64,000 bases of DNA from Gemmatimonadales bacterium (GTDB lineage: Bacteria > Gemmatimonadota > Gemmatimonadetes > Gemmatimonadales > GWC2-71-9), in NCBI GenBank assembly GCA_035309945.1, contig DATGEQ010000009.1, positions 2,343 through 66,342 on the forward strand, given 5' to 3'. A program made the position numbers and the translations under genes. The notes beneath the pieces were generated by a model that was given only the letters and a program-made list of their open reading frames with translations, was not told where the DNA came from and made no database searches. This document shows positions 251-16,255 of this stretch, in pieces; within the stretch, counting starts at the first letter, position 1, and each line of letters starts with the position of its first letter.

Positions 251-372
251 CATTGCACGATCCACCCGTCACGAAGTTGGATGACCCGATCGCCGTATTT
301 CGCGTTCTCCTCCGAGTGCGTGACCTGCACGATCGTCGTGCCGGCCGCATTGAGGTCTCGAAGGGCGATCAT
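250..372 (-). pseudogene. 40-codon remnant of an ABC-transporter ATP-binding gene (C-terminal segment only)
   Basis: The frame reads [40 protein letters not shown]. This parallels the C-terminus of the intact ATPase at 2869..3570 (LRELHRGGATICMVTHDPRYAAHADRRIELFDGRVVE). No Walker A, Walker B or signature motif lies upstream. Its ATG overlaps the upstream TGA, and its TGA overlaps the downstream ATG (ATGA in both cases). Confidence 0.55.
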
Positions 373-3570: not shown

Positions 3571-3585
3571 TCGGTTCTCCTGGGA

Positions 3586-3655
3586 AGGTGTCAGGTGATA
3601 GGTGTTAGGTGTCAGGGACCTGCCACCTACCACCTGCCACCTATCACCTGCCACC
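3586..3655. repeat. Ten in-register heptamers forming a long imperfect inverted repeat
   Basis: The plus strand reads aggtgtc aggtgat aggtgtt aggtgtc | agggacc | tgccacc taccacc tgccacc tatcacc tgccacc. It fills the gap between the adaptor-gene stop (3655-3657) and the ATPase ribosome-binding site and start. Confidence 0.85.
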
Positions 3656-4899
3656 TATTTGAGTTTCACCCGATCCACGTTCCCGTACTGCGACATATCC
3701 GAGAGAATCACGCGATCGCCCTGGTTCAAGCCCTGGATGATCTCGATCGCATTCACCGATGACCGGCCGACGCGCACCGGCACCCGCACGGCGTAACGGC
3801 CGCCCTCCACCACCTTGAACATCCCGATCGTACTGTTGGACTGGCCGTAGGCGGGACGGCCGGTGTACAGCACGTTCTCGAGCCGGTCGACCTCGATCGT
3901 GCCGTCGACCGAAAGGTCGGGCCGCGCGCCGGCGGGGAGCGCGCCGTCGAGTGCCACGTCGACCGTTACGGTCCCGTTTACGGCGTTCGCATCGTAGCGA
4001 CTCACGTGTCCTGTAATGATTCCGTTCCTGGTATCGATAGACGCAGGCTGTCCGATCGCCACATCCTTCGCCTGGGTTTCGGGGATCTGCAGCACCGCTT
4101 TCAGTTTCCCGGGCTGCACGACCTTCGCGAGGATCGTCCCCTCCGTGACCCACTGGCCGAGCTGCAGCGACAGGTCGGTCAACGTGCCGGCGTCGCCCGC
4201 GCGCACCTGGAGTGCGCGGACGCGGGTTTCCTGGAACTGCGCGATAGCGCGCAACCGGTCGACCTGGGAGACCTGCACCGCGATCTGCGAGTCGAGGGTT
4301 GAGGCCATGAGCTCGAGCCGCTGCTGCTCGACGCGAGAGCGGGTCTCGAGCTCCTGCACGCGGTCCTTGGCAAGGGCGGCATCGTTCTGGGCGATGAGGC
4401 CGTCGCGCGCCAGGGTATCGGCGCCGAGCGCCGCCCGCTTCGCCGCCTCGTAGTCGGTGTGCGTCGTCGCGACGACGCCTTCCTGTGTGAGCTTCTGGCT
4501 CTGTAACGTGGTCCGCAGGCTCACGAGCTGCGCCTGCGCCGCGGTGTACTGCTGCTCGGCCTGCAGCGCCTGAATCTGGACGTCGGGGTTGGACATCTCG
4601 AGCAACAGCGTGTTCGGCTGCACTTGCTGCCCTGGCTGGGCGAGGATGTTCTCGACGCGCGCCGAGGCGAGCGCCGAGATGTAGCGGATGTGCTCGGGGA
4701 CGAGCGTCCCCGGGCCGCGCACTTCACGCAGCATCTCGCCGCGGCGCACCGAATCGATCCACGGCGCCCCGCCTTCGATCGTCGGCGCCGCGGGCCTGAG
4801 GCTCGTCAGCAGCAGCGTGACCAGCAGGACGACACCGGCCGCGATGCCGGCCTGCCAGAGGCGGCGGCGGTTTTTGACTGGCGCGCGCGGAATATCCAA
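3655..4899 (-). CDS. HlyD-family efflux adaptor (MacA-like periplasmic subunit)
   Basis: It has an N-terminal TM segment (IAAGVVLLVTLLLTSL), a long Q/L-rich coiled-coil hairpin region and a C-terminal beta-barrel-like part. It lies directly upstream of the ATPase and permease. The only available start is TTG at 4899, with AGGAGA about 12 nt upstream. Confidence 0.85.
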   Translation of the reverse strand: MDIPRAPVKNRRRLWQAGIAAGVVLLVTLLLTSLRPAAPTIEGGAPWIDSVRRGEMLREVRGPGTLVPEHIRYISALASARVENILAQPGQQVQPNTLLLEMSNPDVQIQALQAEQQYTAAQAQLVSLRTTLQSQKLTQEGVVATTHTDYEAAKRAALGADTLARDGLIAQNDAALAKDRVQELETRSRVEQQRLELMASTLDSQIAVQVSQVDRLRAIAQFQETRVRALQVRAGDAGTLTDLSLQLGQWVTEGTILAKVVQPGKLKAVLQIPETQAKDVAIGQPASIDTRNGIITGHVSRYDANAVNGTVTVDVALDGALPAGARPDLSVDGTIEVDRLENVLYTGRPAYGQSNSTIGMFKVVEGGRYAVRVPVRVGRSSVNAIEIIQGLNQGDRVILSDMSQYGNVDRVKLK

Positions 4900-5063
4900 A
4901 GAGGGTTCTCGATCTCCTGTTGTGGGTGCTTAAAGCACGGGGCATGCCCGCGCTTCAGGTTGGAAGCTGTTGGCAGTCGTGGGCTTACAGGTCAGGCTCG
5001 CCGGCGGATTGAGCGGACATGGGATTCCGCGTCCCAGAACCGGACAGGACATTCCCCAAGACA

Positions 5064-5094
5064 AAGCGCGGTAGCCGACCACTCTACCGCGCTT
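5064..5094 (-). terminator. Candidate intrinsic terminator of the 5126..5812 gene
   Basis: A perfect 11-bp stem (aagcgcggtag / ctaccgcgctt) encloses a 9-nt loop. On the minus strand it is followed by TTTGTCTT and sits 32 nt after the stop codon. Confidence 0.5.
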
Positions 5095-5125
5095 CGTCGC
5101 CTCCCTTCCGAAACCGGCAGCGCCA

Positions 5126-5812
5126 TCACGCCACCTTGATTCCACTGCCACCCGCTCCGGCCGGCGGCTCGTTCTTGGTCTTGAACGGCCCCAGCACGTT
5201 ACGGGCGCTGTGCCACGCTCCCATCAATTCGGCATCTTCGCCGAACTGATACTTCACCACACCGTCCAGCAACTGCACCTGCTCGGCGATCTCCGCGAAC
5301 ACCGCATCGAGATCGGCGCTTGCGCCCACATGCTCGCGCCGGGCCTCACGGGTCGCTTCGAGTGTCTGGTCGAACTCGGCCAGCGCCGCCGCAAGATCCT
5401 CGAGCACCTTCTGCGACATCCCGAGGCTCACGAGTACATCCTTCTGCCCGCTCGCGTTTTCCAACGTCGCACGGGCAGCCGTCAGCAACGCCTGTTGACT
5501 CGCGTTGCCGGGCGGCAGCGGGAACTGGTTCGCCAGCTCCCCTTTTTGCTTCGCCGCCACCTTACCCACGACACGCAAATACCGCAGGATCTTGGTCTGC
5601 AGCGCGCGCCGCACTTCCTTCCGCTGCTTGGTGGCCTGCTGCGCCATCGCCACCCCATTCCGTTGCTGACCCGCAAGCACGTTCGCTCGCTCGATCAGCT
5701 CCTCGAGCTTCGCCAGCCCGAGGCCCTGCCCTACACCTTCCGTTTGATGCGCCCGCAAGAAATCGCGGACTCGCTCGGCCATTTCTAGCCGCCTACGCAA
5801 TTGGGCTCGCAT
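5126..5812 (-). CDS. Hypothetical all-helical protein (about 228 aa)
   Basis: The start is the ATG at 5812, preceded by GGAAGGGGGG. The sequence is MRAQLRRRLEMAERVRDFLRAHQTEG... and is helical and low-complexity, with G/C-rich third codon positions. I recognise no family. Confidence 0.6.
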   Translation of the reverse strand: MRAQLRRRLEMAERVRDFLRAHQTEGVGQGLGLAKLEELIERANVLAGQQRNGVAMAQQATKQRKEVRRALQTKILRYLRVVGKVAAKQKGELANQFPLPPGNASQQALLTAARATLENASGQKDVLVSLGMSQKVLEDLAAALAEFDQTLEATREARREHVGASADLDAVFAEIAEQVQLLDGVVKYQFGEDAELMGAWHSARNVLGPFKTKNEPPAGAGGSGIKVA

Positions 5813-6031
5813 AGAGCCCCCCTTCCTGGGTGAGGACTGGACACGGCGTCGGGATCCGTGTCCGCATTGGAAATCTCCCGACACCCCACCCCAAGGAAAA
5901 AATCGTTCCACGACGAATCGTGCTCAAAGTCCCGCGTGGAGTGTCCCTTTTTGAGGACACTTTTTGCGGACTCCCGGAAAGTGCCCAAACGGCGCGACGA
6001 TCTCGTCTGATATTTCGACACACCCCCTCGC

Positions 6032-6337
6032 CTGATTGTTGATCGAAGTCCGTCGATTGTTGATCCACGCGCATCGATTCCCGATCGACCTCGGCTGATT
6101 CCCCATCGCAGCCCGCTGATCGTCGATCGCGCTCCGCCGATCGCGCCGCTGCGTCCGGTGATTGCCGATCTACGCCTGCTGATTGTTGATCGAGAACCGC
6201 TGATCGTGACTGAAGGGAGGGGGAATGTCGATCGAGGGCCGCTGATTCCGCATCGCGCATCGGTGATCGTCGATCGGCGGTCGCTGATCGTTGATCCAGG
6301 TGCCCGTCCTGGGCGAATCGGTCGTCTGATCGGTCAG
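6032..6337. repeat. 15-unit, exactly 21-bp-phased degenerate tandem repeat (core CTGATYGTYGATCG plus a 7-nt variable spacer)
   Basis: Units start at 6032, 6053, 6074, 6095, 6116, 6137, 6158, 6179, 6200, 6221, 6242, 6263, 6284, 6305 and 6326 with no indel. I counted 15 GATC tetramers in about 306 bp. Confidence 0.9.
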
Positions 6338-6353
6338 TTCTGGAGGCGGACGC

Positions 6354-7322
6354 TCAGATTTCCCAGTTGGAGAACAACACTCCCTGGACGGCTTGCCGCT
6401 CGGGGTAGCCTGCGTAGGTCATTCGCAGGTCGGTCCAGCGCACGCGATAGCCGCGGCTGATCAGGCGACGAAATGCCTCGGTGTAACGGCTCTGGCACCG
6501 GATCGCGATGCGCCGGATGCCGGCCTTTGCGGCGGCCGCCTCGACCGCGCTGACCGCGGCATCGAACGCGGCGTCGCTGCGCGCGGCGAGCTTGAGCACG
6601 CGGACCTCGTCGCGCGTCCGGCTGTCCGCCAATGGCGCCGAGTGCCACACCGCCAGGGCATCGAGGCCGGTGTCGCTCTCCACCAGCGACGTGTCACCGA
6701 GGCCCAGCTCGACGGTGAGCAGGATCTCGCGCGAGAAGTCGATGCCTGGGGCGAGATCGTTGACGAGATGACGGCCCGCCGCCACGGCTGCTTCTTTGTC
6801 TTCCGCCGCGCGTTTGGACAGCAACACCGGCGCGGGATGGCCGCGCGTCGCGATCTCGTTCGTCAGGGTGATCGTCAGGAATCCCGGCGAGAATCCCAGC
6901 CGCGCGTAGAAGCCGATATTCTCCGGCGTGCGCGGCATCGTCTCGAGGCCGAGCGTCCCAACCCCGCGATCGATCAGCCAGTCGGCCGCCGTGCGGACGA
7001 TGGTCTTGCCGATGCCCGTGCCCTGGCGATCGGGTCGCACGGCGAGCGGCCCCATCCATCCCTCGAGGCCGGCCTGGTGCGCCACGTTGAACGCGGCGAT
7101 GTCGCCATGTTCGTCGCGCCACACCATCGCGCCGTCGCCGGCGTCGAGCAGCGCGTAGCGCCATACCAGTGGATTGAGCTGCGGGACGCGGACGCCGATC
7201 AGGCCGTCGCGGCGATAGCGGTCGGTGAACGCTTCCGCAAAGACGCGGTTCAGCTCGTCGATGTCGCGCTCGGTGGCGCGCTCGGGTCCGGTGACCCGGG
7301 TATCAGGCAGCCACGCTCTCAT
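6354..7322 (-). CDS. GNAT-family N-acetyltransferase (two-lobed, about 322 aa)
   Basis: It carries an acetyl-CoA-binding-type motif, RPDRQGTGIGKTIVRTAADWLIDRG, followed by FYARLGF. The start is uncertain: ATG 7322, 7355 and 7385 are all in frame and all overlap the end of the Rad50 gene (stop at 7303-7305). Confidence 0.78.
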   Translation of the reverse strand: MRAWLPDTRVTGPERATERDIDELNRVFAEAFTDRYRRDGLIGVRVPQLNPLVWRYALLDAGDGAMVWRDEHGDIAAFNVAHQAGLEGWMGPLAVRPDRQGTGIGKTIVRTAADWLIDRGVGTLGLETMPRTPENIGFYARLGFSPGFLTITLTNEIATRGHPAPVLLSKRAAEDKEAAVAAGRHLVNDLAPGIDFSREILLTVELGLGDTSLVESDTGLDALAVWHSAPLADSRTRDEVRVLKLAARSDAAFDAAVSAVEAAAAKAGIRRIAIRCQSRYTEAFRRLISRGYRVRWTDLRMTYAGYPERQAVQGVLFSNWEI

Positions 7323-9738
7323 CGGGAGCCGTAGGTCCAAGAGTGGCGGTTTCATCGCGTACGATGCTCGTTCCGGTCGTGGCATCGTACGCCACGCGGA
7401 TGATGCGATCGAGCCCGTCGCGGACCTGTTCGATGTGCGTGATGAGGATGACTTGCGGGAAGCGGTCGCCGAGGCGGCGCAGGAGCGCGAGCACGTGCTG
7501 GCGCCGCGCTTCGTCGAGCGAGCCGAAGATCTCGTCGAGCACGAGCAGCGACAGCGGCTGCCCGGCGCGCTCGGCGATCATCTGGGAGATGGCGAGCCGC
7601 AGCACGAGATTCGCGATGTCCTCTTCCCCGCCCGAGATCACCGGCTTCGGCACGCCTTCGTCGAGCACCACCACGCGATAATCCTCATCCAGATCGACTT
7701 CATCGTAGCGCGCATCGGTGAGATCCGACAGGAACCCCGATGCCAGGGCGCCGATCTCCGGCCGCATGGCCGCGTTCAGCTCGGCGCGCAGATCGGAGAA
7801 CGCGCGGTCGAGCTCGTTGTGCAACCGCAGCTCGACTTTCCGCTCACCAATCGTCCGCTCGCGCGCGGCGCGCTCCGTGGCGCGGCGCTCGCCTTCGCGC
7901 ACCGCCGTTTCCGCCGCCACCAGCTCGCCGCGCGTCTCGGCCACGGCCAATTCGGCGGCGCGCAGCGCGTGCGCCGCGCGATCGTGGCGCTCGCGCGCCG
8001 CCTGGAACTTGGGCTCCGAGAAACCTTGCGCCTTCACGGCGTCCGCAAGCTGGCGCGCGCTTTCCTCGCGGGCCGACAGCGCTTTCTCCGCGATCTCCGC
8101 TTCGCCGACGAGCGCCTCGGCCCGATCGGCGCGCGCGGCCAGCGTCGCGGCCTGCAGCGCCACCGGTTCGAGGCGCGCCAGCTCGGCACGCACCTCGTTA
8201 TGGCGCTCGACGTTGTACCCCGCGTCGCGCGCGGCGACGTGCTTCTCGATCTCCTGCATGCGTTTCGCCAACCCGGCGCGCTCCTTTTTCAGCCGCGCGC
8301 ATTCGCGGGCCTGCTCGCGCAGCGTGGTTTCGCGCTCGGTCACTTGCCGAACCTCTTCCCGCAGCGCGTCGCGCGCGGCTTCCGCCTGCGTCACCGCCGC
8401 GGGCGGATTCGCGAGCTGCTCGATCCGCTGCTTCAGCCACTTCCCATCGACGACAATCAGCTCGAGCTGCTCATCCAGCTCCGCCAGCACCGCGGGGTAT
8501 TCCGATCCGAGCGGCCGCCGGCACGTGGGACATTGCCCCTCGGGCCCGAGCCGCGCGATCTCGTCGCGATGGGTCTTCACCTCTTCGTGCTGCTTTAGCA
8601 GAGCGGCGCGGCGGGTGCCTGCGGACTCCTTCTCACGCACCCAGATCGACTGCTGCTCCTCGGCGGCCTGCTCGGCGGCGTCCAACCGCGCCGCGAGCCC
8701 ACCCGCCTCCTTGCTCACGCGCGCCAGGTCGGCATCGACCTCCGCCAGCTCTGCGATGCGCCGATCGAGGACGTTCAAGTTGCGCGTCAACTCGGTGAGC
8801 TTGGCCTGCTCCTCGCGCCGCGCCGCGTCCTCGCGGTGCAATCGATCGAGCTCGGCAAGCTCGGCCTTCAATTTGGAGATCGGCGCGACCTCGGCATCGA
8901 GGCTGCGCAGCTCCTCGCGCGCGGCAAGCGCCGCGGCCAGCTCCTTGTCGAGCCGCTGGAACTCTTGCCGCGCGACGACGACCCCTTGCTCCGCAACTCG
9001 CAGGTCGCCGTGCAGCGAGAGCGTGCGGTCGCGACGCTCGACCCACTGCTGCCACCGCGGCTCTTCCTCGGCGAGCGCCTGCTGCGCCTTGGCGCGTTCG
9101 TTCGTCGACTGCGTTGCGGCCTTGCGCGCCTCGGTCAATCGCCCCTCGGCGCTCTTCTTCTCTTTCTCGATTTCACTTTGCGGCGGCAGTCCGGTTTCGA
9201 GACCGTCGACTTCGTGGCCGAGCGCGTTGCGACGCTCGCGGATGCGCTCCTGCGCCAGCGTGAGCTGCTCGTGCCGTAGCACGCGCGAGAGGAACGCCGC
9301 GCGCTCGGGGCGCGTCGCGTCGGCCAGCACCGCCAGCTCTTTCTGGCCGGTGAAGTAGGTGTTGAAGAACTCGTCGTGCGTCATGCCGAGCACGCGCTGC
9401 AAACGACTGGTGACTTCTTTCAATGAATTCGCGACGACGGCGCCGTCCTGATACAGCTCCGCGTTGTTGAGGCCGCGCTCGACACGGAACGCGTGGTTGC
9501 CGAGCGCGAATTCGAGCTCGACGCGCACGGGCGCCCGCGCCTTCGCGCGCAGGTTGCGGATCGAGTCCTTGTCGCCGCGCGCGGCCGGATTGCCGTAGAT
9601 GGCCCACGCGATCGCTTCGAGCAACGACGTCTTGCCCGAGCCGTTCGGCCCGATGATCCCCGTGATGCCGTCGCCGAACGCGATCTCGGTGTCGGCGTGC
9701 TGGCGGAAATTCACGAGCCGCAGGCGCTGCAGCTTCAC
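7303..9738 (-). CDS. sbcC: Rad50/SbcC-type SMC-like ATPase
   Basis: Walker A GPNGSGKTS, long coiled coils with a central zinc hook CPTC, signature SGGEEDIANL, Walker B LLVLDEIFGSLD and H-loop ITHIEQV are present. The GTG start at 9738 overlaps the Mre11 stop (GTGA). Confidence 0.9.
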   Translation of the reverse strand: MKLQRLRLVNFRQHADTEIAFGDGITGIIGPNGSGKTSLLEAIAWAIYGNPAARGDKDSIRNLRAKARAPVRVELEFALGNHAFRVERGLNNAELYQDGAVVANSLKEVTSRLQRVLGMTHDEFFNTYFTGQKELAVLADATRPERAAFLSRVLRHEQLTLAQERIRERRNALGHEVDGLETGLPPQSEIEKEKKSAEGRLTEARKAATQSTNERAKAQQALAEEEPRWQQWVERRDRTLSLHGDLRVAEQGVVVARQEFQRLDKELAAALAAREELRSLDAEVAPISKLKAELAELDRLHREDAARREEQAKLTELTRNLNVLDRRIAELAEVDADLARVSKEAGGLAARLDAAEQAAEEQQSIWVREKESAGTRRAALLKQHEEVKTHRDEIARLGPEGQCPTCRRPLGSEYPAVLAELDEQLELIVVDGKWLKQRIEQLANPPAAVTQAEAARDALREEVRQVTERETTLREQARECARLKKERAGLAKRMQEIEKHVAARDAGYNVERHNEVRAELARLEPVALQAATLAARADRAEALVGEAEIAEKALSAREESARQLADAVKAQGFSEPKFQAARERHDRAAHALRAAELAVAETRGELVAAETAVREGERRATERAARERTIGERKVELRLHNELDRAFSDLRAELNAAMRPEIGALASGFLSDLTDARYDEVDLDEDYRVVVLDEGVPKPVISGGEEDIANLVLRLAISQMIAERAGQPLSLLVLDEIFGSLDEARRQHVLALLRRLGDRFPQVILITHIEQVRDGLDRIIRVAYDATTGTSIVRDETATLGPTAPDESVAA

Positions 9739-10940
9739 GCGGGCTCGCCTTCCGTCCGGCCGGCGGTTTCCAGGTATTCGACGCCGAGCTTCACGAACGT
9801 CTCGCGATTCAGCTCCGCGTCGAGCGGCCGGCGGCCCAGAAAGTCGCGGACGGTGTCCGTGAGCGTCTGACGCTTCGCGCCTGCCCCGGAGATCGTACCG
9901 GCGACGCGCGCTGCCTCGGGCCGTCGCAGATCGAGCTGGAAGTTCAAGGCGCGCGCCTTGTAGCCGCGGATCGCTGCGTGATCGAGATCGCGCGCGACGG
10001 CGCGTTCCACGTCCCAGACGAGCAGTCGCACGATCTGATCGTCGATCTTTGCGCCATTCACGCGCTCGGCGATTGCCGCGTCGAGCTCCTTGGCGTTCAG
10101 CCCGGCCGCCTGAATCGGCGGCAGATCGACGTGCCGCCGCGCCGGCGCGATCGGTCGGAAGCTCACGCGTGCGCCCGGCAGATCGACCAGCAGATATCCT
10201 TTCCCGTTGCGCTCCTTCTTGCCTTTGGCGCTCGCGCGCTGCGCGGCTTCATCCTGGAGCTGGCCCCACGGATTCGGCGGCAGATACTCGAGGCTGCCCG
10301 AGTACCACGCGTTGGTCGCGACCGACTGCGCGGTGTGGTAGTGGCCGAGCGCGATGTAGTCCCACTTCTCCGGCGCGAGCAGCTCGCGCGAGAGCTCCGC
10401 GCCGCCGTACTCCACCGTGCCGCGCTCTTCACCCAGTCCGCCGTAAACGCCATGCGTGACCAGCACGTTGAACGTGGGTCCGCCCGGCTCCGGGCGCAGC
10501 GCCGGTCGGTCCGCTTTCGCGAGCGCGGATTGCGGCACGGCGAGCACGGCGCAGTCGAGCTTCGGCAACACGATGCGCCGCGCGTCTTCGACCGCGATCT
10601 CGACGCCGAGCGCTTCGTAGAGACGCAGAATCGTCCCGGTCTCGGTGGAGCGCGGCGTGTCGTGCTCGCCCGCGATGACGACGACCGGTGTTGCCGGCAG
10701 ACCACTGCGGAGCCGCTGCAGCTGCCGGAAGCAAAAGAGGATCGCCTGATTGGTCGGTCGAACCGAATGAAACAGATCGCCCGCGACGACGATCAGCTCG
10801 GGCTGCTGTTCCAGCATGTCATCCACGGCGCGCTTGAAGACCTCGGCGACGTCGGCCTCGCGCTGGTTCGTCCCTCGGGCCGTCTGCCGGTCGAACTGGC
10901 GGAAGCCGAGATGGAGATCGGCGAGGTGCGCGAGCTTCAT
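9735..10940 (-). CDS. sbcD: Mre11/SbcD-type phosphoesterase nuclease
   Basis: Calcineurin-like motifs are present: HLADLHLG, VVAGDLFH, IAGEHDTP, LVTHG and ALGHYH. The real start is the ATG at 10940 (TAATG overlap with the HerA stop). The 700-aa track ORF (to 11837) is an Arg/Ala-rich artefactual extension. Confidence 0.9.
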   Translation of the reverse strand: MKLAHLADLHLGFRQFDRQTARGTNQREADVAEVFKRAVDDMLEQQPELIVVAGDLFHSVRPTNQAILFCFRQLQRLRSGLPATPVVVIAGEHDTPRSTETGTILRLYEALGVEIAVEDARRIVLPKLDCAVLAVPQSALAKADRPALRPEPGGPTFNVLVTHGVYGGLGEERGTVEYGGAELSRELLAPEKWDYIALGHYHTAQSVATNAWYSGSLEYLPPNPWGQLQDEAAQRASAKGKKERNGKGYLLVDLPGARVSFRPIAPARRHVDLPPIQAAGLNAKELDAAIAERVNGAKIDDQIVRLLVWDVERAVARDLDHAAIRGYKARALNFQLDLRRPEAARVAGTISGAGAKRQTLTDTVRDFLGRRPLDAELNRETFVKLGVEYLETAGRTEGEPA

Positions 10941-12892
10941 TAGTACGGCTCGTCCGAGATCGGATTCAGCGGCGGCACCGTGTGGTGCTCGCGCGGCATG
11001 CCGGCATCGGGCGTCACGCGCGCGCCGAGCACTTTGCGGAAGTAGGCGAAGACGTCGTCGGGGCGGGTGCGGCGCACCGTCGCCAGCGCGCGCCGCACGT
11101 CGTCCGGCTCGCGATCGGCGATCAGGTCCTTTACCTGATTGGGGCGCACACGCCGATCGAGCCGGACGAGCTGGCGTACCACGGCATCGTCGAACGGCAC
11201 ATCCTCTGCCGGCGGAAAGCGCTCGACGCCGTCCCGGCCGCGCAGCACCGGCGGTTTGGGAAAGCGCACGAAGATCGGCTGCGTAAAATGCGGGTGGCGG
11301 ATCATCAGCTCGCCGATCGGCAGCGTCGCCAGCTTGCTTTTGGTTGCTGGGCTGAGGACCTGATACCCCGGAGTCGCCAACTCGTCCATGTCCATGCGCC
11401 CGAACAGCTGCGTGCCGGCATTGCCGACCACGCGGCGATGCACCTGCGAGCGGAATTGCTCGGCGCCGAAGAGCACGAGGCCGAGGTAGCGGCCGCGCTC
11501 GGAGATGTCGAGCAGCATCTTCTTGACGTACGTCTCGGGGCCGTCGCCCGGCGCGTACTTGTTCAGCTCGTCGACGAACACGATCACCGCATCGACGCCG
11601 AGCGCACGGCGCTCCAACTGCTCGCGCAGCTTCGAGACCACGCGCGCAAACACGAGATCCTGGCCGAGCGGGTCGACGTTCGCGATGTCGATGACGTAGA
11701 CCGTGCGGTCCGCGAACGCGGTCCAGGGGAGATCGCTCGCCGGCCCGTCGTCGGTCACGAGGCCTTTGCAGCGGGTCGAGATGTTGAGCAGCCGGTTGCG
11801 CACTTTGCGCATCGTGGCGATGTGATGGGTCCGCCACGTGTCGCTGCGCCCGCCCGCCGTGATCTCGAGGCCGTCGAAGATCGACCGGAACAGCCGGTCG
11901 AGATCGGCGAAGGTCTGCACGCGATGCGTCGTGCCGAAGCCGTCGTCGAAGTTCTTCCCCAACACCCGATCCCTCAAAAAGTCGATGAACGCGTCGGCCT
12001 TCGCGTCGATGTCGTCGCGGTTGAGCAGCACCTCCGCGTAGTCCACGACTTCCTGCAAGCCCCAGGTGAGCGGCTCGACGTCGGCGACGAGGTCGGCGTG
12101 CGTGCGGAGCGTGTTGAGGTTCACGCCGTCCGATTTGTACGGCGCGTAGAGCTGCACGCGCTGGAACGGCTCCGCCGGAATCCGCAACCGCTCGTAGCGG
12201 CGGCGGTCCTCGTCACTCAGCTCGCCGGGCTGATCGAGAAAACAGAGATCGGGGCCTTTGACGTTGAAGCACACCGCGGCCACGCGGCCTTTGTGCGCCG
12301 GGAAGTGCGCGAAGATCGAGGCGAGCAGGAACTCGACCGCGCTGGTCTTGGTCGCAAGCCCGGAGACGCCGGAGATGTTGAGATGCGCGGCCTCGGGGCC
12401 GAGCAGGAAATCGGCGTCGAGATAGACCGGCGCGTCGCGTCCCGCCGATGTATAGAGCCCGACGGGAATCGCGGTCGGCGCGGCAGAATAAAGGAAAGCA
12501 TCCATGCGGAGCGCTTGCGCGACGTCGGCGTCATCGGCCAGGTACACTTGCCCGAGCGGCACCGGTTGGAGCGGCTCTTCGGGCGTCTGCCGCAACACCG
12601 CCGCCGTCCAGTAGCGAATCTGCTGGCGCGCGGTGGGTGGATCATCCCTGGTGGGGTCGCCCTCGGCGCCGATGACCTCGTGGAGTGGTGTCGCCAGATC
12701 GGAATACGCGAAGCCTTCGGTCACGACGCCGTACACGATTTTGCCGGGCAGGGGCGCGGCATGCTGCGCCCCGACATCCACTTTCACGATCGCACCGATT
12801 CCAATCTCGGTATCGGTCGCCGTCCAGAAATGGAATTGATGCGGGGTCGCGGGCTTCAGTTCTGTTGCGACGACCCGTCCGATTGCGTTCAC
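10940..12892 (-). CDS. herA: HerA-like (FtsK/HerA superfamily, DUF87-type) ATPase
   Basis: An N-terminal barrel-like segment (GRVVATELKPATPHQFHFWTA..IGAIVKVD) is followed by a P-loop-like GVSGLATKTS and a Walker B VIVFVDELNKYAP. It sits between the NurA-like and Mre11 genes. The GTG start at 12892 overlaps the NurA stop (GTGA). Confidence 0.72.
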   Translation of the reverse strand: MNAIGRVVATELKPATPHQFHFWTATDTEIGIGAIVKVDVGAQHAAPLPGKIVYGVVTEGFAYSDLATPLHEVIGAEGDPTRDDPPTARQQIRYWTAAVLRQTPEEPLQPVPLGQVYLADDADVAQALRMDAFLYSAAPTAIPVGLYTSAGRDAPVYLDADFLLGPEAAHLNISGVSGLATKTSAVEFLLASIFAHFPAHKGRVAAVCFNVKGPDLCFLDQPGELSDEDRRRYERLRIPAEPFQRVQLYAPYKSDGVNLNTLRTHADLVADVEPLTWGLQEVVDYAEVLLNRDDIDAKADAFIDFLRDRVLGKNFDDGFGTTHRVQTFADLDRLFRSIFDGLEITAGGRSDTWRTHHIATMRKVRNRLLNISTRCKGLVTDDGPASDLPWTAFADRTVYVIDIANVDPLGQDLVFARVVSKLREQLERRALGVDAVIVFVDELNKYAPGDGPETYVKKMLLDISERGRYLGLVLFGAEQFRSQVHRRVVGNAGTQLFGRMDMDELATPGYQVLSPATKSKLATLPIGELMIRHPHFTQPIFVRFPKPPVLRGRDGVERFPPAEDVPFDDAVVRQLVRLDRRVRPNQVKDLIADREPDDVRRALATVRRTRPDDVFAYFRKVLGARVTPDAGMPREHHTVPPLNPISDEPY

Positions 12893-13815
12893 GACGCGAG
12901 CCGGGCTTTCAGGTATTCCTCCACATGATGTAAAGGATACAACAGCCGGTCCCAGCGCGCGGCTGGAGTCGCCAGTGGCGCGCGCTCCGCCCACAGCCAG
13001 CCGCTCAGCTCGGCCGCGCGCGCGACGGTGTCGGGGTGCGCGCGCGCTTCGATCCGCAGCAGCCCATACAGCAGATCGTTTCCTTCCCACGGCCGGAGCC
13101 GGAGATACCACGAGTAGACCTCGGTTCGCGTGTGACCGCCGCGCACGGCGAACACGCTCGTGCGATACCCGGCCGGCAAGGTCAACGCGCGTTCAAGTCC
13201 CCTTCCCTCGAGAAATTGCGCGCCGTGACTCTTGATGACGCCGATTGCGCGCGGGTGGCGTGCGACGGCGGGTGAGCGCGACAGCAGACCGTCGCTGACC
13301 AGCCACTCCTCCGGCCCGAGCGCGTCGATCGCTGCTTCGGCCAATTCCCGCTCGAGGCGCGCCCGGATGCGGCGGACCGTCGCCTCGATCATCTCGACGT
13401 AGCGCGCCGGCTGCTCCACGAGGTCGGCATCCACCGGCTCGATGTCCGGCGCCGCCTGCTCGAGCGCTTGCCGCGTCGCAGGGCTCATCCGTTCGAGCGG
13501 CGCGATCGCGAACGCGCGGCTGCGCTCGAACGTGGTGCGCAGGACGCCGGTGCCGTCACGCCGGCGGACCGCCGCGGCGACAGCGGCGTTGACGATCGGG
13601 GTGACGCCGTCATAGGCGACGACGTTCCACCGCTCGATGCCATTGAGGAAGGAGACGACCGGCGGGATGCGCGCGACGCCGCGATCCGGAACGGCATGCG
13701 TCTCGAGCTCCGTCCCTTCTACCAGATCGGCCAGCTCGCCCTTTTCGACTTCATCCGTCTTGCGGCCGGATCCGGGGACGGCGCCCGCGGCGATCAGCGG
13801 CTGCCACCACGTCAT
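12889..13815 (-). CDS. nurA: NurA-like nuclease
   Basis: About 308 aa, starting MTWWQPL. NurA-type landmarks are WLVSDGLL (catalytic Asp strand), IGVIKSHG, and YPLHHVEEYLKA near the C-terminus. It sits immediately upstream of herA. Its ATG at 13815 overlaps the methyltransferase stop (ATGA). The assignment rests on my motif recognition only. Confidence 0.6.
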   Translation of the reverse strand: MTWWQPLIAAGAVPGSGRKTDEVEKGELADLVEGTELETHAVPDRGVARIPPVVSFLNGIERWNVVAYDGVTPIVNAAVAAAVRRRDGTGVLRTTFERSRAFAIAPLERMSPATRQALEQAAPDIEPVDADLVEQPARYVEMIEATVRRIRARLERELAEAAIDALGPEEWLVSDGLLSRSPAVARHPRAIGVIKSHGAQFLEGRGLERALTLPAGYRTSVFAVRGGHTRTEVYSWYLRLRPWEGNDLLYGLLRIEARAHPDTVARAAELSGWLWAERAPLATPAARWDRLLYPLHHVEEYLKARLAS

Positions 13816-14450
13816 GCCGTCTCTCGCAGCTTGACGCCGACCAGCAAGCCATCGCGCACGGGGATGATGGTCGCGACCAGACGCGGATCGCGCGCCGCGA
13901 GCTCGTTGAACTTCCGCACGCCGAGCGCGTTCCCCGACGTATCGCTCGGGTTGACCGCGGCGCCGTGAAAGAACGCGTTGTCGCAGAGCAGCAGGCCGCC
14001 GCGGCGCAGCAGCTTCATGCCCCAGTCGAAGTAGTGCGGGAGCGGCTCTTTGTCGGCATCGATGAACACCGCGTCGAACCCCGGATGCAACGTCGGCAGC
14101 ACGTCGAGCGCCGCGCCCTCGAGCAGTCGCACGCGGCCGTGGAGTCGCGCCATGGCGAACGCCTCGCGCGCCACGCGCGCATGCTTCGGATCTTTCTCGA
14201 TCGTCGTCAGCTCGCCCCCGGCGGGGAGCGCGCGCGCCAGCCACACACCGCTGTAACCTCCCAGCGCGCCGATCTCGAGCACCCGCTTTGCCTGAATCGT
14301 GAGGAGCAGCAGGTGGAGCAGCTTGCCTTCTTCGGGTGAGACGTTGATCTCGGGGAGACCTTCTGCTGCGTGACGCGCGCGGATTTTCGCGAGTATCGGG
14401 TCTTCGGCGGCGAACAGCTCGGTGACGTAGCGGTCGAGTTTCTCGTCCAC
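13812..14450 (-). CDS. Class I SAM-dependent O-methyltransferase (family 3, caffeoyl-CoA OMT-like)
   Basis: Recognisable segments are VLEIGALGGYSGVWLA (SAM-binding glycine-rich loop), FDAVFIDADKEPLPHYF and GGLLLCDNAFFHG. The GTG start at 14450 shares one base with the upstream TAG. Confidence 0.87.
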   Translation of the reverse strand: MDEKLDRYVTELFAAEDPILAKIRARHAAEGLPEINVSPEEGKLLHLLLLTIQAKRVLEIGALGGYSGVWLARALPAGGELTTIEKDPKHARVAREAFAMARLHGRVRLLEGAALDVLPTLHPGFDAVFIDADKEPLPHYFDWGMKLLRRGGLLLCDNAFFHGAAVNPSDTSGNALGVRKFNELAARDPRLVATIIPVRDGLLVGVKLRETA

Positions 14451-14965
14451 TACGCCGTAGCTTCGACGTTGGGGAAGGGCGGAACCTCGAGGAGCCAGAG
14501 TCCCGCAAGCCGCGCCTGTTTGTCCACCTCGACCAGCATGTGATCGGCGATCCGCACCACCGTCGCGGGGCGCTTACTCCCGACGCGAATGTGGAAGACC
14601 GATTCGTTCTGGTTCTTGTCGACCGTGAGCGCCGTATCGAGCTCGACTGCGGCGACGCCGGGCTGCGAGCGACGGTCGGGGAACGTGACCTGCCCTTCCT
14701 TGGAGACCTCCGGCGGTTGCAGCGTCGCGACCGTCCGCACGTCGTCGGGCCACGTCACGACGTCCACGCCGCGCAGCGCGCCGCCGGCGACGTCGAGCAC
14801 CACGAACGAGCCGTCCCCGCCCTCGAGATCGACGGTCCCGTTCATGCCGTTCCCTTTGGTGACGCCCTTGCAGGCGACCGTCAGGATGTCGGTCTCGGGA
14901 TCCCACCGGTAGGAGACCTTGGGCAGCTTGCCGTTGAGTGGCTCGATGCGTGCTTCGAAATGCAT
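14450..14965 (-). CDS. Hypothetical protein, possibly two DUF2283-like halves
   Basis: 171 aa. YRWDPETDILTVACKG resembles the DUF2283 Y-D-x-E-x-D-x-L motif, and a second half contains LVEVDKQARLAGLWLLEV. It is the first gene of the coupled operon. Confidence 0.45.
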   Translation of the reverse strand: MHFEARIEPLNGKLPKVSYRWDPETDILTVACKGVTKGNGMNGTVDLEGGDGSFVVLDVAGGALRGVDVVTWPDDVRTVATLQPPEVSKEGQVTFPDRRSQPGVAAVELDTALTVDKNQNESVFHIRVGSKRPATVVRIADHMLVEVDKQARLAGLWLLEVPPFPNVEATA

Positions 14966-15016
14966 GTCGGGTCTCGTCTTCCTGCGTGCGCGTTGGATGC
15001 GTAATATAGCGGCACT

Positions 15017-16255
15017 ATGGAACGACGCGAGTTTCTGGGTGCTGCGGCAGGAGTAATCGTTAGCGGTGTAACGCGGAACGCGGAACAGTCTCGCCCGCCC
15101 GGTTCCGCGTTCCGACTTCCGCGTTCCGCGTTAGACCGCTCACAGGGTCCTACGCTGACACCGACGGTGTTCGCCCAACGCATCCAGCGGGCGCAGGAGG
15201 AGCTGAAATCCCGCAAGCTGGACATGCTCGTCGTCGAGCCGAGCACGAACTTTCAGTACTTCACGAGCTACAACCCGGGACGGAGCGAGCGGCTGATTCT
15301 GTTGATGATCCCCGCCGCCGCGGCGCCGGTCATCGTGTGCCCCTCGTTTGAAGTCGAGCGCATCAAGCGCAATACCGTCATCACCGACGCGCGTGGCTGG
15401 GAGGAGCAGGAAGATCCCTGGGCGCTGGTCGCGAAAGCCGCGACGCAGCTGAAGCCGCGGGGCCGCGACGGCATCGTCGCGATCGAGCCGACGACGTCGT
15501 ATCAGAGCTACGTGCGGCTCGTCACGAAGCTGCGTGGCTGGCTCCCGCACGATGGCGCACCGGTCACCGAGCGGTTGCGGATCATCAAGAGTCCCGAGGA
15601 GATCGCGCTCATCCGCACCGCGATCGCGGCGACGGAAGCGTCGATCGCCGCGACATTCTCGCAGCTCGCGGTCGGCATGAGCGAACGCGACGTCGCCGCC
15701 CTGCTGTCGCGCGAAATGGCGAGCCGCAGCGCACCGGGCGGCGGCCTGGTGCAGTTCGGTACCTCGAGCGCGCTGCCGCATGGCGGCCCGTCGGCGGGAC
15801 AGTTGACGCGGGAGACGGTCGTGCTGATCGACGCCGGCTCGCGCGTCGAGGGCTACACGTCGGACATCACACGCACGATCTGGTTCGGCGATGCGCCGTC
15901 CGATGAGTTCAAGAAAGTCTTCAACATCGTGCACGACGCCCAGACCGCGGCGATCGAGAGCGCCAAGCCGGGCGTGACGCAGTGCCAGCAGGTCGATCGC
16001 GCGGCGCGGAAAGTCATCACCGACGCGGGCTACGGCCAATACTTCACGCATCGCCTGGGGCACGGCATGGGCATGGACGGGCACGAGCCGCCGTATATGG
16101 TCGAAGGGAACGCCACGCTACTCGAGCCCGGGATCGTCTTTACCGACGAGCCGGGGATCTATCAACTCGGCAAGTTTGGTGTGCGGATCGAGGACGACTG
16201 TATGATGACGCCGACCGGAGTCGAAGTCCTCTCCCACCGCGTGGCGAAGCTCTAG
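15017..16255 (+). CDS. M24-family Xaa-Pro peptidase with a Tat-like signal
   Basis: The N-terminus MERREFLGAAAGV is Tat-like. M24B metal-ligand context is present: VLIDAGSRVEGYTSDITRT, HRLGHGMGMDGHEPPY and FTDEPGIY..GVRIED. Confidence 0.9.
   Translation: MERREFLGAAAGVIVSGVTRNAEQSRPPGSAFRLPRSALDRSQGPTLTPTVFAQRIQRAQEELKSRKLDMLVVEPSTNFQYFTSYNPGRSERLILLMIPAAAAPVIVCPSFEVERIKRNTVITDARGWEEQEDPWALVAKAATQLKPRGRDGIVAIEPTTSYQSYVRLVTKLRGWLPHDGAPVTERLRIIKSPEEIALIRTAIAATEASIAATFSQLAVGMSERDVAALLSREMASRSAPGGGLVQFGTSSALPHGGPSAGQLTRETVVLIDAGSRVEGYTSDITRTIWFGDAPSDEFKKVFNIVHDAQTAAIESAKPGVTQCQQVDRAARKVITDAGYGQYFTHRLGHGMGMDGHEPPYMVEGNATLLEPGIVFTDEPGIYQLGKFGVRIEDDCMMTPTGVEVLSHRVAKL
15070..15132. repeat. Nine in-register heptamers forming an inverted repeat inside the M24 peptidase CDS
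   Basis: It reads aacgcgg aacgcgg | aacagtc tcgcccg cccggtt | ccgcgtt ccgactt ccgcgtt ccgcgtt. The 13-bp segment cggaacgcggaac (15074-15086) is perfectly complementary to gttccgcgttccg (15102-15114). Its 63 nt equal 21 codons, just after the signal peptide. Confidence 0.85.

What the first reader, a model, noticed from the sequence alone, without database searches (positions are those of the whole stretch)
6354..14965. Archaeal-style HerA-NurA-Mre11-Rad50 module as one seven-gene translationally coupled bacterial operon with three extra genes
On the minus strand seven ORFs follow each other with overlapping stop/start codons. The order is a DUF2283-like protein, then a class I O-methyltransferase (TAGTG overlap), NurA-like (ATGA), HerA-like (GTGA), Mre11/SbcD (TAATG), Rad50/SbcC (GTGA) and GNAT (start inside the Rad50 3' end).

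The four-gene herA/nurA/mre11/rad50 linkage is the hallmark of DNA-end resection loci in thermophilic archaea. In bacteria NurA-HerA pairs are known, for example in Deinococcus, but as far as I know they are generally separate from sbcCD.

Here all four are fused into one coupled unit and flanked by a small-molecule-type methyltransferase, a DUF2283-like protein and an acetyltransferase. None of these has an established role in end processing. The tight coupling suggests stoichiometric co-expression. It raises the possibility of a modified repair machine or a nucleic-acid-targeting system in which methylation or acetylation modulates the nuclease/ATPase complex.
Basis: partly seen in the sequence, partly recalled or inferred. 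Interest (0 to 1): 0.7.

Follow-up and report, generated by a model that had tools for sequence, protein, structure and literature searches.

The report
Bacterial NurA-HerA-Mre11-Rad50 repair operon plus acetyltransferase
This is a chromosomal DNA-break-processing operon of a soil Gemmatimonadales bacterium; its four-gene core is common in bacteria, but the acetyltransferase gene locked onto rad50 across the phylum and the lost catalytic aspartate in the NurA nuclease are new details.

Summary
Seven minus-strand genes (6354-14965) follow each other with 1-4 nt overlaps, and the last junction overlaps by 20 nt. All seven assignments were confirmed, NurA only by fold and profile and DUF2283 only weakly.

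The four-gene nurA/herA/mre11/rad50 linkage is not an archaeal oddity. It was reported in Oceanithermus. Here it was found in 5 of 5 actinobacterial, cyanobacterial and Chloroflexota records and in most of 80 metagenome loci.

In 80 Gemmatimonadota species the cluster sits in a conserved housekeeping neighbourhood, which fits vertically inherited repair rather than defence.

The three extra genes differ:
- **GNAT:** follows rad50 in 51 of 52 loci, usually with the same 20-nt overlap, and is never separated from it.
- **DUF2283-like gene:** present in 66% of loci.
- **O-methyltransferase:** present in 29%, so it looks like a lineage-specific passenger.

None of the three occurs with the cluster outside the phylum. 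The fully compact seven-gene form is confined to about three species.

Two findings are unexpected. The window's NurA carries Asn at the catalytic Asp and has lost a second family-invariant Asp. Mre11 motif III reads GEHD, not GNHD.

Verdict: a new variant of a known system, of moderate interest.

The parts
14450..14965 (-). g1: 171-aa protein that looks like two tandem DUF2283-like units. It is the first gene of the unit, with AGGAAG 12 nt upstream of the ATG.
   Evidence: The ORF and gene call agree. Its own DUF2283 hit is E 0.03, below cutoff. 16 of 27 orthologues hit PF10049, best 2e-5. The conserved motifs are YRWDxETDIL and LAGxWLLNVPPFP. The AF2 model is unusable at pLDDT 42. The gene is present upstream of nurA in 38 of 58 loci.
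13812..14450 (-). Class I SAM-dependent O-methyltransferase, family 3 (212 aa). It is probably a lineage-specific passenger.
   Evidence: PF01596 4.8e-43. Present in only 17 of 58 Gemmatimonadota loci with enough upstream sequence. Other genes are often interposed. Absent from all non-Gemmatimonadota clusters.
12889..13815 (-). Bacterial-type NurA (308 aa, RNase H/PIWI-like fold). It has Asn at the catalytic Asp position (residue 58) and Ala at the otherwise invariant Asp285.
   Evidence: Foldseek matches 7f6d_G at 9.4e-12 and 1zup at 4e-10. Profile A2 hits 1zup at 3e-9 and the 7f6d NurA at 3.4e-9. 16 of 96 relatives hit PF09376. Mapping to TmNurA D49/E140/D157 rests and PMC3300031.
10940..12892 (-). 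Bacterial-type HerA ATPase/translocase (650 aa). The Walker A-like segment is GVSGLATKTS and the Walker B segment is VFVDELNKYAP.
   Evidence: phmmer gives 1e-43 to D. radiodurans HerA 7f6d_B, and both motif segments align. There is no Pfam, NCBIfam or PADLOC hit.
9735..10940 (-). Mre11/SbcD nuclease (401 aa). Phosphoesterase motifs I, II, IV and V are intact. Motif III is GEHD instead of GNHD.
   Evidence: Metallophos 1e-12. Mre11_Sulfo 4.8e-20 and sbcd 7e-19. The best PDB matches are P. furiosus and M. jannaschii Mre11, then T. maritima. Motif table.
7303..9738 (-). Rad50/SbcC ABC-ATPase (811 aa). It has Walker A GPNGSGKTS, a CPTC zinc hook, the SGGE signature and Walker B LLVLDE.
   Evidence: NCBIfam Rad50 PRK03918 2.1e-61 and SMC_N 9e-22. 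The best PDB matches are P. furiosus Rad50 at 6e-31, then M. jannaschii and T. maritima. The motifs were read from the translation.
6354..7322 (-). Two-part GNAT acetyltransferase (322 aa). The N-terminal GNAT domain is weakly RimI/Naa30-like. The conserved about 170-aa C-terminal half has no known family and ends in an invariant SNWEI. The start lies 20 nt inside the rad50 3' end.
   Evidence: PF00583 about 8e-13. The best PDB profile hits are RimI 5isv at 4e-7 and 2cnm. The start is supported by orthologue N-termini. Adjacent to rad50 in 51 of 52 loci with a gap of -20 to +21 nt. Invariant residues.
14966..15016 (.). A 51-bp divergent intergenic region between g1 and the oppositely oriented M24 peptidase gene. 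This is the presumed promoter region of the unit.
   Evidence: Sequence. No sigma-70-like consensus was found.

Best explanation
The locus is a vertically inherited chromosomal operon for processing DNA double-strand ends in a Gemmatimonadales bacterium. It joins a bacterial-type NurA-HerA nuclease/translocase pair to an Mre11-Rad50 (SbcCD-type) end-binding nuclease/ATPase.

**Inferred working model, from the characterised Deinococcus and archaeal homologues**
- Rad50-Mre11 recognises and trims ends.
- The HerA hexamer, capped by a NurA dimer, translocates on the duplex and feeds the strands for resection.

**Shown here**
- The four-gene linkage is the usual state for this bacterial HerA family.
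- In Gemmatimonadota, mre11-rad50 is followed almost invariably by a GNAT acetyltransferase gene whose start overlaps the rad50 stop. This is the only extra gene likely to be functionally tied to the machine. It may be a protein acetyltransferase acting on a subunit or on a DNA-end or nucleoid protein.
- The DUF2283-like gene is a frequent neighbour. The O-methyltransferase is a lineage-specific one.
- The fully overlapping seven-gene unit arose recently in the window's narrow lineage, through loss of genes that are interposed in relatives.
- In that lineage NurA has lost the catalytic Asp (D58N) and a second invariant Asp (D285A).

**Inferred**
NurA here is probably nuclease-impaired and serves mainly as HerA's structural partner. 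Cutting would fall to Mre11, whose motif III is itself altered to GEHD, or to another nuclease.
For: **Identities:**

**Linkage outside the phylum**
- Literature: PMC5448004.
- herA-sbcD-sbcC is adjacent in 5 of 5 plasmid-database records from three phyla. NurA was confirmed by hhalign at 97-99% probability in three and by tblastn in a fourth.
- Metagenomes: sbcD follows herA in 53 of 62 loci, and sbcC is present in 40 of 50.

**Vertical inheritance and core location**
- All 80 best genome hits are Gemmatimonadota, with HerA identity grading from 91% to 60%.
- The same upstream housekeeping genes (aminotransferase, S58 peptidase, TK and others) are present in 40-49 loci.
- GC content matches the surroundings.

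**GNAT**
- Present in 51 of 52 loci.
- The 20-nt overlap recurs in about 35 loci, and the gap never exceeds 21 nt. Insertions occur at the OMT|nurA, nurA|herA and herA|mre11 junctions but never here.
- Synteny ends exactly at the GNAT stop.

**NurA active site**
- Window positions 58, 155 and 175 align to TmNurA D49, E140 and D157. The 12-residue tag offset is consistent at all three (PMC3300031).
- Position 58 is D in 91 of 96 representatives and in 61 of the 63 other loci (the other two are truncated there). It is N or A in all 8 members of the window's clade. D285 is lost in the same 8.
- Mutation of the equivalent PfNurA Asp51 abolishes nuclease activity (PMC3300031).
Against: - No expression, interaction or activity data exist. 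Co-transcription is inferred from the overlaps alone.
- Synteny is generally high in this region of Gemmatimonadota genomes, so GNAT adjacency could partly reflect inheritance rather than function. One locus (L069) lacks it.
- GNAT is absent from the homologous clusters of other phyla, so it is not required for the core machine.
- E155, D175 and E299 of NurA stay invariant in the clade. A Q61E change precedes the D58 loss, so a rewired but still active site is possible.
- NurA is still under constraint within the clade.
- Some plasmid-borne relatives of the four-gene cluster lie next to Wadjet, TIR/HEPN and ImmA/IrrE genes. A defence role for the module in general is therefore not excluded.
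Confidence: 0.6

Rival explanations
1. The four core genes form a repair operon, and all three extra genes, GNAT included, are unrelated housekeeping passengers. GNAT could be a RimI-like protein acetyltransferase. The extras would share the transcript only through inherited gene order and genome compaction.
For: - OMT and g1 are patchy, at 29% and 66% of loci.
- Unrelated genes are tolerated inside the cluster in relatives: a lipoprotein-like gene, a GlpD-like gene and an Lrp/AsnC-like gene.
- Flanking housekeeping synteny is also conserved across the phylum.
- The nearest solved relatives of GNAT are RimI and Naa30, which are general protein N-acetyltransferases.
- GNAT is absent from clusters in other phyla.
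Against: - The rad50-GNAT junction is the most rigid in the locus. It holds in 51 of 52 loci, is never interrupted, and keeps a 20-nt overlap down to about 63% HerA identity. The herA|mre11 junction is interrupted in most loci.
- Synteny breaks immediately after GNAT.
Confidence: 0.28
2. The seven genes form an anti-phage or anti-plasmid system that targets nucleic acid. An SMC-like ATPase, nucleases and a HerA motor would act together, with self/non-self marking or regulation by the methyltransferase and acetyltransferase, as in Lamassu, Wadjet, MADS or the HerA-based systems.
For: - PADLOC: OMT matches mad2 at 5.8e-18, and Rad50 matches mad3 at 7e-32 and LmuB at 1e-26.
- Plasmid-borne relatives of the four-gene module lie beside Wadjet-like (TIGR02680, TIGR02678, DUF2397), TIR, HEPN and ImmA/IrrE genes.
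Against: - The PADLOC matches are limited to the generic methyltransferase core and the ABC head. HerA, NurA, g1 and GNAT have no defence-model hits, and Mre11 has only two marginal ones.
- The locus occupies the same housekeeping neighbourhood in about 80 species, with identity tracking taxonomy. This is unlike sporadic, island-borne defence genes.
- The OMT is a small-molecule or RNA-type family 3 O-methyltransferase, not a DNA methyltransferase, and it is missing from most relatives.
Confidence: 0.06

Closest known systems
Deinococcus radiodurans NurA-HerA end-resection complex (PDB 7F6D; PMC9960219)
   Same: HerA is the only solved HerA detected by sequence (1e-43), and the Walker segments align. 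NurA has the same fold, and 7f6d_G is the top Foldseek match. The nurA-herA pair is adjacent and in the same order.
   Different: In Deinococcus the pair is not linked to sbcCD. The window's NurA lacks the catalytic Asp and Asp285. NurA sequence identity is only about 20%.
Bacterial nurA-herA-sbcD-sbcC clusters (Oceanithermus profundus, PMC5448004; plasmids of Sphaerospermopsis, Aulosira, Chlorohelix and Streptomyces; Nonomuraea chromosome)
   Same: herA, sbcD and sbcC lie on one strand with short gaps. HerA is 25-32% identical. NurA homology was confirmed for four of the five records: by hhalign for three and by tblastn for Aulosira.
   Different: These clusters have no GNAT, OMT or DUF2283-like gene (0 of 5 and 0 of 80). 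Their SbcC is about 1000-1100 aa against 811 aa here. Some have nurA after sbcC. Several are plasmid-borne and lie near defence genes, whereas the Gemmatimonadota locus is in the chromosomal core.
Archaeal herA-mre11-rad50-nurA operon of thermophilic archaea (Constantinesco et al. 2004, cited in PMC9960219 and PMC5448004)
   Same: The same four functions are linked in one operon. Mre11 and Rad50 here score best against archaeal (P. furiosus, M. jannaschii) structures and NCBIfam archaeal Rad50 models.
   Different: HerA and NurA are of the bacterial type. No archaeal HerA or NurA structure was detected by sequence, and neither protein hits a Pfam family on its own. The host is a mesophilic soil bacterium, and an acetyltransferase gene is attached.
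RimI / Naa30-type GNAT protein N-acetyltransferases
   Same: The N-terminal domain matches PF00583, and RimI (5isv, 2cnm) and Naa30 are the best solved relatives. The acetyl-CoA motif RQGTGIG is present.
   Different: The protein is twice as long. Its conserved about 170-aa C-terminal half matches no known family. Its gene is translationally coupled to rad50 across a phylum.

Membership tests
NurA nuclease (PF09376; RNase H/PIWI-like) | NurA fold | tested here: met
   The AF2 model (pLDDT 72, pTM 0.74) has DrNurA 7f6d_G (E 9.4e-12, TM 0.53) and TmNurA 1zup (4e-10) as its top PDB matches. Argonaute PIWI domains follow.
NurA nuclease (PF09376; RNase H/PIWI-like) | Sequence or profile similarity to recognised NurA proteins | tested here: met
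   The protein's own sequence gives no Pfam, NCBIfam or PDB hit. The family profile A2 hits 1zup at 3e-9 and the 7f6d NurA at 3.4e-9. 16 of 96 members hit PF09376.
NurA nuclease (PF09376; RNase H/PIWI-like) | Catalytic acidic residues (PfNurA D51/E105/D126; TmNurA D49/E140/D157) | tested here: not met
   E155 and D175 are present. The first Asp is Asn58 in the window, and N or A in all 8 clade members, against D in 91 of 96 family representatives.
NurA nuclease (PF09376; RNase H/PIWI-like) | Gene adjacent to herA | tested here: met
   There is a 4-nt overlap with herA. The median nurA-to-herA gap is 20 nt across 70 loci.
HerA (FtsK-HerA superfamily ATPase) | Homology to a characterised HerA, including the P-loop and Walker B | tested here: met
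   7f6d_B at 1e-43. NISGVSGLATKTS aligns with NISGISGVATKTS, and VDELNKYAP with LDELNKYAP.
HerA (FtsK-HerA superfamily ATPase) | Match to curated HerA/DUF87 family models | tested here: not met
   There is no Pfam or NCBIfam hit at E up to 10. The same holds for the actinobacterial, cyanobacterial and Chloroflexota homologues. This bacterial subfamily is simply not covered by the models.
HerA (FtsK-HerA superfamily ATPase) | Hexameric ring that binds a NurA dimer | not testable with these tools
   No multimer prediction was available.
Mre11/SbcD | Five calcineurin-like phosphoesterase motifs | tested here: inconclusive
   Motifs I (DLHLG), II (GDLFH), IV (THG) and V (GHYH) are intact. Motif III is GEHD rather than GNHD. 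Position 92 is N in 56 of 70 orthologues, and E, D or T in the window's wider clade.
Rad50/SbcC | Split ABC head, coiled coil and CxxC zinc hook | tested here: met
   SMC_N spans residues 3-784. Rad50 PRK03918 scores 2e-61. GPNGSGKTS, CPTC, SGGE and LLVLDE were read in the translation.
Archaeal-type herA-nurA-mre11-rad50 operon | Four genes linked in one operon | tested here: met
Archaeal-type herA-nurA-mre11-rad50 operon | HerA and NurA of the archaeal lineage | tested here: not met
   Only the bacterial (Deinococcus, Thermotoga) HerA and NurA structures are detected. The relatives recovered are bacterial.
DUF2283 (PF10049) | Match above Pfam's gathering score | tested here: inconclusive
   The window protein scores 14.9 bits against a cutoff of 23, E 0.03. 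16 of 27 orthologues match at E up to 1, best 2e-5. The structure model is too poor to test.
Class I O-methyltransferase family 3 (PF01596) | Full-length family match | tested here: met
   147 bits against a cutoff of 22, covering profile positions 5-201 of 204.
GNAT acetyltransferase (PF00583) | GNAT domain with the acetyl-CoA motif | tested here: met
   49 bits against a cutoff of 20.7. RQGTGIGK is present. All 27 orthologues match.
MADS / Lamassu-type defence systems | Full complement of system genes recognised by defence models | tested here: not met
   Only domain-level hits were found: OMT to mad2 (residues 259-395 of 492) and Rad50 to mad3 and LmuB. g1, NurA, HerA and GNAT have none, and Mre11 has only two marginal hits to candidate families.

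The most novel reading that the evidence does not exclude
In Gemmatimonadota the GNAT protein is a dedicated third partner of Mre11-Rad50. It would act as an acetyltransferase that binds the complex or acetylates it, HerA-NurA, or a DNA-end or nucleoid protein, and so gates end resection. In the window's lineage the machine has been rewired further. NurA has become a non-catalytic cap for the HerA motor, and Mre11 has an altered metal site. That would amount to a bacterial double-strand-break resection complex controlled by acetylation, with a pseudo-nuclease subunit.
Probability: 0.2. Interest if true: 0.65.

Novelty: new variant of a known kind. Interest (0 to 1): 0.4.

Why it matters
- NurA-HerA is well studied in archaea but poorly understood in bacteria. 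This work shows that in this bacterial HerA family, linkage to SbcCD/Mre11-Rad50 is the usual state across several phyla. That argues the four proteins cooperate in bacteria as well.
- A phylum-wide, translationally coupled rad50-GNAT pair is a concrete, testable lead for acetylation-based control of a bacterial Mre11-Rad50 machine. Cultured Gemmatimonas species carry the cluster.
- The natural D58N/D285A NurA clade offers a test of whether NurA's structural role on HerA can be separated from its nuclease activity.
- If these leads fail, the locus is simply an ordinary repair operon with passenger genes.

Tried and rejected
- **Direct family searches.** Pfam, NCBIfam and PADLOC gave nothing for g1, NurA and HerA. 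phmmer of NurA, and of a low-diversity NurA profile, against the PDB also gave nothing.
- **Locus search with NurA alignments.** I used HerA motifs instead.
- **Third homologue search, with the diverse NurA profile.** It again returned only Gemmatimonadota, so this NurA subfamily is essentially phylum-specific.
- **g1 structure.** The AF2 model has pLDDT 42 and was not searched. The g1 profile against the PDB found nothing meaningful.
- **GNAT look-up.** A look-up by exact sequence with the M22 start found no record.
- **GNAT C-terminal half.** No family or structure match. An internal-duplication test by hhalign was not significant, at 3% probability.
- **Promoter, terminator, RNA and tRNA scans.**
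  - The promoter and terminator scan was uninformative: 0 promoter-like sites, and terminator-like sites at or below the chance expectation.
  - Rfam and tRNA scans of the window found nothing.
- **MADS reading.** Rejected, because the matches are confined to generic domains.
- **Relaxed selection on NurA.** Within-clade NurA divergence is not faster than expected from HerA divergence. Only the branch leading to the clade is accelerated.
- **D297.** Considered as a third lost catalytic residue, but it is only about 50% conserved in the family.
- **Literature.** No paper links a GNAT to SbcCD or Mre11-Rad50 in bacteria.

Full report
**1. Observation**

The window is 62-69% G+C throughout, and the operon is not compositionally distinct. 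On the minus strand of 6354-14965 there are seven consecutive ORFs.

I checked every junction in the sequence:
- g1 to OMT: TAGTG, 1 nt shared.
- OMT to NurA: ATGA, 4 nt.
- NurA to HerA: GTGA, 4 nt.
- HerA to Mre11: TAATG, 1 nt.
- Mre11 to Rad50: GTGA, 4 nt.
- The GNAT ORF begins inside the Rad50 3' end.

Gene calls made independently on three public contigs that encode the identical NurA give the same products of 171, 212, 308, 650 and 401 aa.

Two corrections apply. Mre11 is 9735-10940. The real GNAT start is almost certainly M22 at 7322, because orthologues start at the conserved 'MRAWLP' and the resulting 20-nt overlap with rad50 recurs in about 35 species.

**2. Gene identities**

- **OMT.** Full-length family 3 O-methyltransferase, PF01596 at 4.8e-43.
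- **Mre11.**
  - Metallophos plus Mre11/SbcD models.
  - The best solved relatives are P. furiosus and M. jannaschii Mre11, then T. maritima.
- **Rad50.**
  - Archaeal-type Rad50 models score best at 2e-61, against 6e-34 for the sbcC model.
  - P. furiosus Rad50 is the best solved match.
  - The Walker A, CPTC hook, SGGE signature and Walker B are visible in the translation.
- **GNAT.** PF00583.
- **HerA.**
  - No Pfam, NCBIfam or PADLOC hit.
  - It matches D. radiodurans HerA (7F6D) at 1e-43, and the P-loop and Walker B segments align.
- **NurA.**
  - No direct hit anywhere.
  - An AlphaFold model (pLDDT 72, pTM 0.74) has D. radiodurans NurA (E 9e-12) and T. maritima TM1739/NurA (4e-10) as its top PDB matches, followed by Argonaute PIWI domains.
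  - A profile of 96 diverse relatives from the exhaustive representative search hits both solved bacterial NurAs at about 3e-9.
  - 16 of the 96 relatives match Pfam NurA.
- **g1.** It scores below threshold on DUF2283 (E 0.03). However, 16 of 27 orthologues match, best 2e-5, so 'DUF2283-like' is fair. Its structure model was too poor to use.

HerA and NurA are thus of the bacterial (Deinococcus/Thermotoga) type. Mre11-Rad50 are closer to archaeal and Thermotoga proteins than to E. coli SbcCD.

**3. Is the four-gene linkage unusual in bacteria? No.**

Blesa et al. 2017 already described nurA-hepA-sbcD-sbcC in Oceanithermus profundus (PMC5448004).

A tblastn of HerA against the plasmid collection found six records. 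Five of these had usable context:
- Streptomyces sp. and Nonomuraea (Actinomycetota).
- Sphaerospermopsis and Aulosira (Cyanobacteriota).
- Ca. Chlorohelix (Chloroflexota).

All five have herA followed at once by sbcD and sbcC. A flanking 331-346-aa 'hypothetical protein' proved to be NurA by profile comparison, at 97-99% probability, in three of them. In Aulosira it was supported by tblastn. No NurA was detected in the Nonomuraea stretch.

A metagenome scan seeded with these non-Gemmatimonadota HerAs returned 80 loci. sbcD lies directly downstream of herA in 53 of 62 loci with enough sequence, and sbcC is present in 40 of 50. nurA lies either upstream of herA or downstream of sbcC.

Linkage to SbcCD is therefore the usual state for this HerA family. 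None of these loci contains a homologue of the window's GNAT, OMT or g1.

**4. Conservation within Gemmatimonadota**

A genome scan with HerA motifs returned 80 species-level loci. All are Gemmatimonadota, with HerA 91% to 60% identical. Both NurA homologue searches also returned only Gemmatimonadota names.

I mapped all seven proteins onto these loci.

| Junction | Loci measured | Finding |
|---|---|---|
| nurA to herA | 70 | Median gap 20 nt |
| herA to mre11 | 75 | Median gap 868 nt |
| mre11 to rad50 | 68 | Gap -4 to +9 nt in every locus |
| rad50 to GNAT | 56 | Gap -20 to +21 nt |

The herA-mre11 gap exists because most species carry an extra same-strand gene there. It encodes a roughly 280-aa lipoprotein-like product with no known family.

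GNAT follows rad50 in 51 of 52 loci that extend more than 1.2 kb beyond rad50. The gap is exactly -20 nt in about 35 of the measured loci, and nothing is ever inserted. Only L069 lacks it.

g1 is present in 38 of 58 loci with at least 3 kb upstream, and the OMT in 17 of 58. Where both occur they may be separated. An Lrp/AsnC ligand-binding-domain gene lies between g1 and the OMT, and other DNA lies between the OMT and nurA.

The fully overlapping seven-gene arrangement is seen only in the window's species and in L005 and L008.

Upstream of the cluster the same housekeeping genes recur in 40-49 loci in the same order: class I/II aminotransferase, S58 peptidase, thymidine kinase and others. Downstream, similarity stops exactly at the GNAT stop codon. 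In the window a MacAB-type efflux operon follows.

This pattern fits a vertically inherited core-genome locus, not a mobile defence island.

**5. Unexpected changes in the nucleases**

In the profile alignment to TmNurA, window positions 58, 155 and 175 align with chain residues 61, 152 and 169. These are native Asp49, Glu140 and Asp157, and the 12-residue tag offset holds at all three.

They are the active-site residues named in PMC3300031. That paper also reports that mutating the equivalent PfNurA Asp51 abolishes nuclease activity.

- **Position 58.**
  - It is Asp in 91 of 96 family representatives.
  - It is Asp in 61 of the 63 other Gemmatimonadota loci; the other two are truncated there.
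  - It is Asn in the window and Asn or Ala in all eight members of its subclade (HerA at least 88% identical).
  - It is Asn in 23 and Ala in 1 of 24 close metagenomic homologues.
- **Position 285.** The same eight loci have also lost the otherwise invariant Asp285, to Ala, Val or Thr.
- **Retained residues.** E155, D175 and E299 stay invariant.
- **Possible compensation.** A Q61E change arose in the slightly wider clade before D58 was lost, so partial compensation cannot be excluded.
- **Selection.** Within the clade NurA is still constrained. Only the branch leading to it is accelerated.

Mre11 motif III is GEHD in the window's clade, and E, D or T in the next wider clade. It is the canonical GNHD in 56 of 70 orthologues.

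I infer that NurA is nuclease-impaired in this lineage and retained as HerA's structural partner. This inference is untested.

**6. Mechanism**

*Shown:* the gene identities, the linkage and the conservation pattern.

*Inferred from the Deinococcus and archaeal systems (PMC9960219, PMC3326311, PMC3300031):*
- Rad50-Mre11 binds and trims DNA ends.
- HerA6-NurA2 translocates on the duplex and resects.

*GNAT.* It is the only extra gene whose linkage looks selected.
- Its N-terminal domain is weakly closest to RimI and Naa30 protein N-acetyltransferases.
- Its conserved C-terminal half, including the invariant SNWEI terminus, has no known relatives.
- I consider a role as a protein acetyltransferase connected to the Mre11-Rad50 module the most likely single reading. 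A passenger role remains a serious rival at about 0.28.

*Defence reading.* It is unlikely, at about 0.06.
- PADLOC hits are confined to generic domains.
- The locus is phylum-wide and syntenic.
- The OMT is neither a DNA methyltransferase nor conserved.

**7. Novelty and verdict**

The four-gene operon in a bacterium is a new member of a known and, as shown here, common kind.

The features I did not find described are:
- the phylum-wide rad50-GNAT coupling;
- the loss of the catalytic Asp in NurA in one clade;
- the motif III variation in Mre11.

Together they make this a new variant of a known system. Interest is moderate at 0.4. The leads are testable in cultured Gemmatimonas, whose genus carries the cluster (L047, L072 and L073).

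Noticed in passing
window 6035-6350: Immediately after the GNAT stop codon lies an array of about 15 degenerate 21-bp units in perfect register (consensus about TCAGCGGnnnnCGATCrACrA). It has 15 GATC sites in 330 nt and 52% self-identity at period 21. It overlaps a low-complexity heptad-repeat ORF (5793-6260). It is absent downstream of GNAT in 17 related loci. Whether it is an array of protein-binding sites or a coding repeat is unknown.
   Followed up: partly
L006:11938-12759; L013:11943-12815; L021:11910-13654 (two copies); most of L004-L083: In most Gemmatimonadota a same-strand gene for a roughly 280-300-aa lipoprotein-like protein sits between herA and mre11. It has a signal peptide with Cys and an LRYRP/LLRYHP motif, and no Pfam family. 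It is absent from the window. An exported protein inside a DNA-repair operon is odd.
   Followed up: partly
L029:8251-9963; L034:8252-9973: A GlpD-like FAD-dependent oxidoreductase gene is inserted between nurA and herA in two species. Even that junction therefore tolerates insertion.
   Followed up: no
L084 (Streptomyces plasmid) 1-7313; L086 (Chlorohelix plasmid) 1-6829: Plasmid-borne herA-sbcD-sbcC(-nurA) clusters lie next to ImmA/IrrE metallopeptidase genes. They also lie beside Wadjet-like genes (TIGR02680, TIGR02678, DUF2397) or TIR, HEPN and kinase genes. In other phyla the four-gene module may therefore sit in defence or mobile contexts.
   Followed up: no
L089-L168: Metagenome relatives show two orders of the four-gene cluster. 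One is nurA-herA-sbcD-sbcC and the other is herA-sbcD-sbcC-nurA.
   Followed up: partly
window 9735-10940, Mre11 residue 92; L004-L019: The Asn of Mre11 phosphoesterase motif III (GNHD) is Glu in the window's clade and Glu, Asp or Thr in the next wider clade. It is Asn in 56 of 70 orthologues. A few other loci have motif II His replaced by Asn.
   Followed up: partly
window 15069-15130: A long imperfect palindrome, GGAACGCGGAAC...GTTCCGCGTTCC, lies about 100-165 bp upstream of the g1 start codon. It falls inside the 5' end of the divergent M24 peptidase ORF, whose N-terminus MERREFLGAAAG resembles a twin-arginine signal. It could be a regulatory site for the divergent genes.
   Followed up: no
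L065:7250-7561; L078:3301-3612; L058:4302-4592: A roughly 100-aa protein consisting only of an Lrp/AsnC ligand-binding domain (PF01037, 5e-14) is encoded between g1 and the OMT in several Gemmatimonadaceae.
   Followed up: no
window 12889-13815 versus relatives: The window's NurA is about 17 residues shorter at the C-terminus than nearly all close homologues (308 aa against 320-330 aa). This apparently reflects a small deletion that created the GTGA overlap with herA.
   Followed up: no
window 372-4899: A MacAB-type efflux operon lies downstream of the locus on the same strand: HlyD-family adaptor 3655-4899, ABC ATPase 2872-3654 and MacB/FtsX permease 372-3002. It is not syntenic in relatives.
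   Followed up: no
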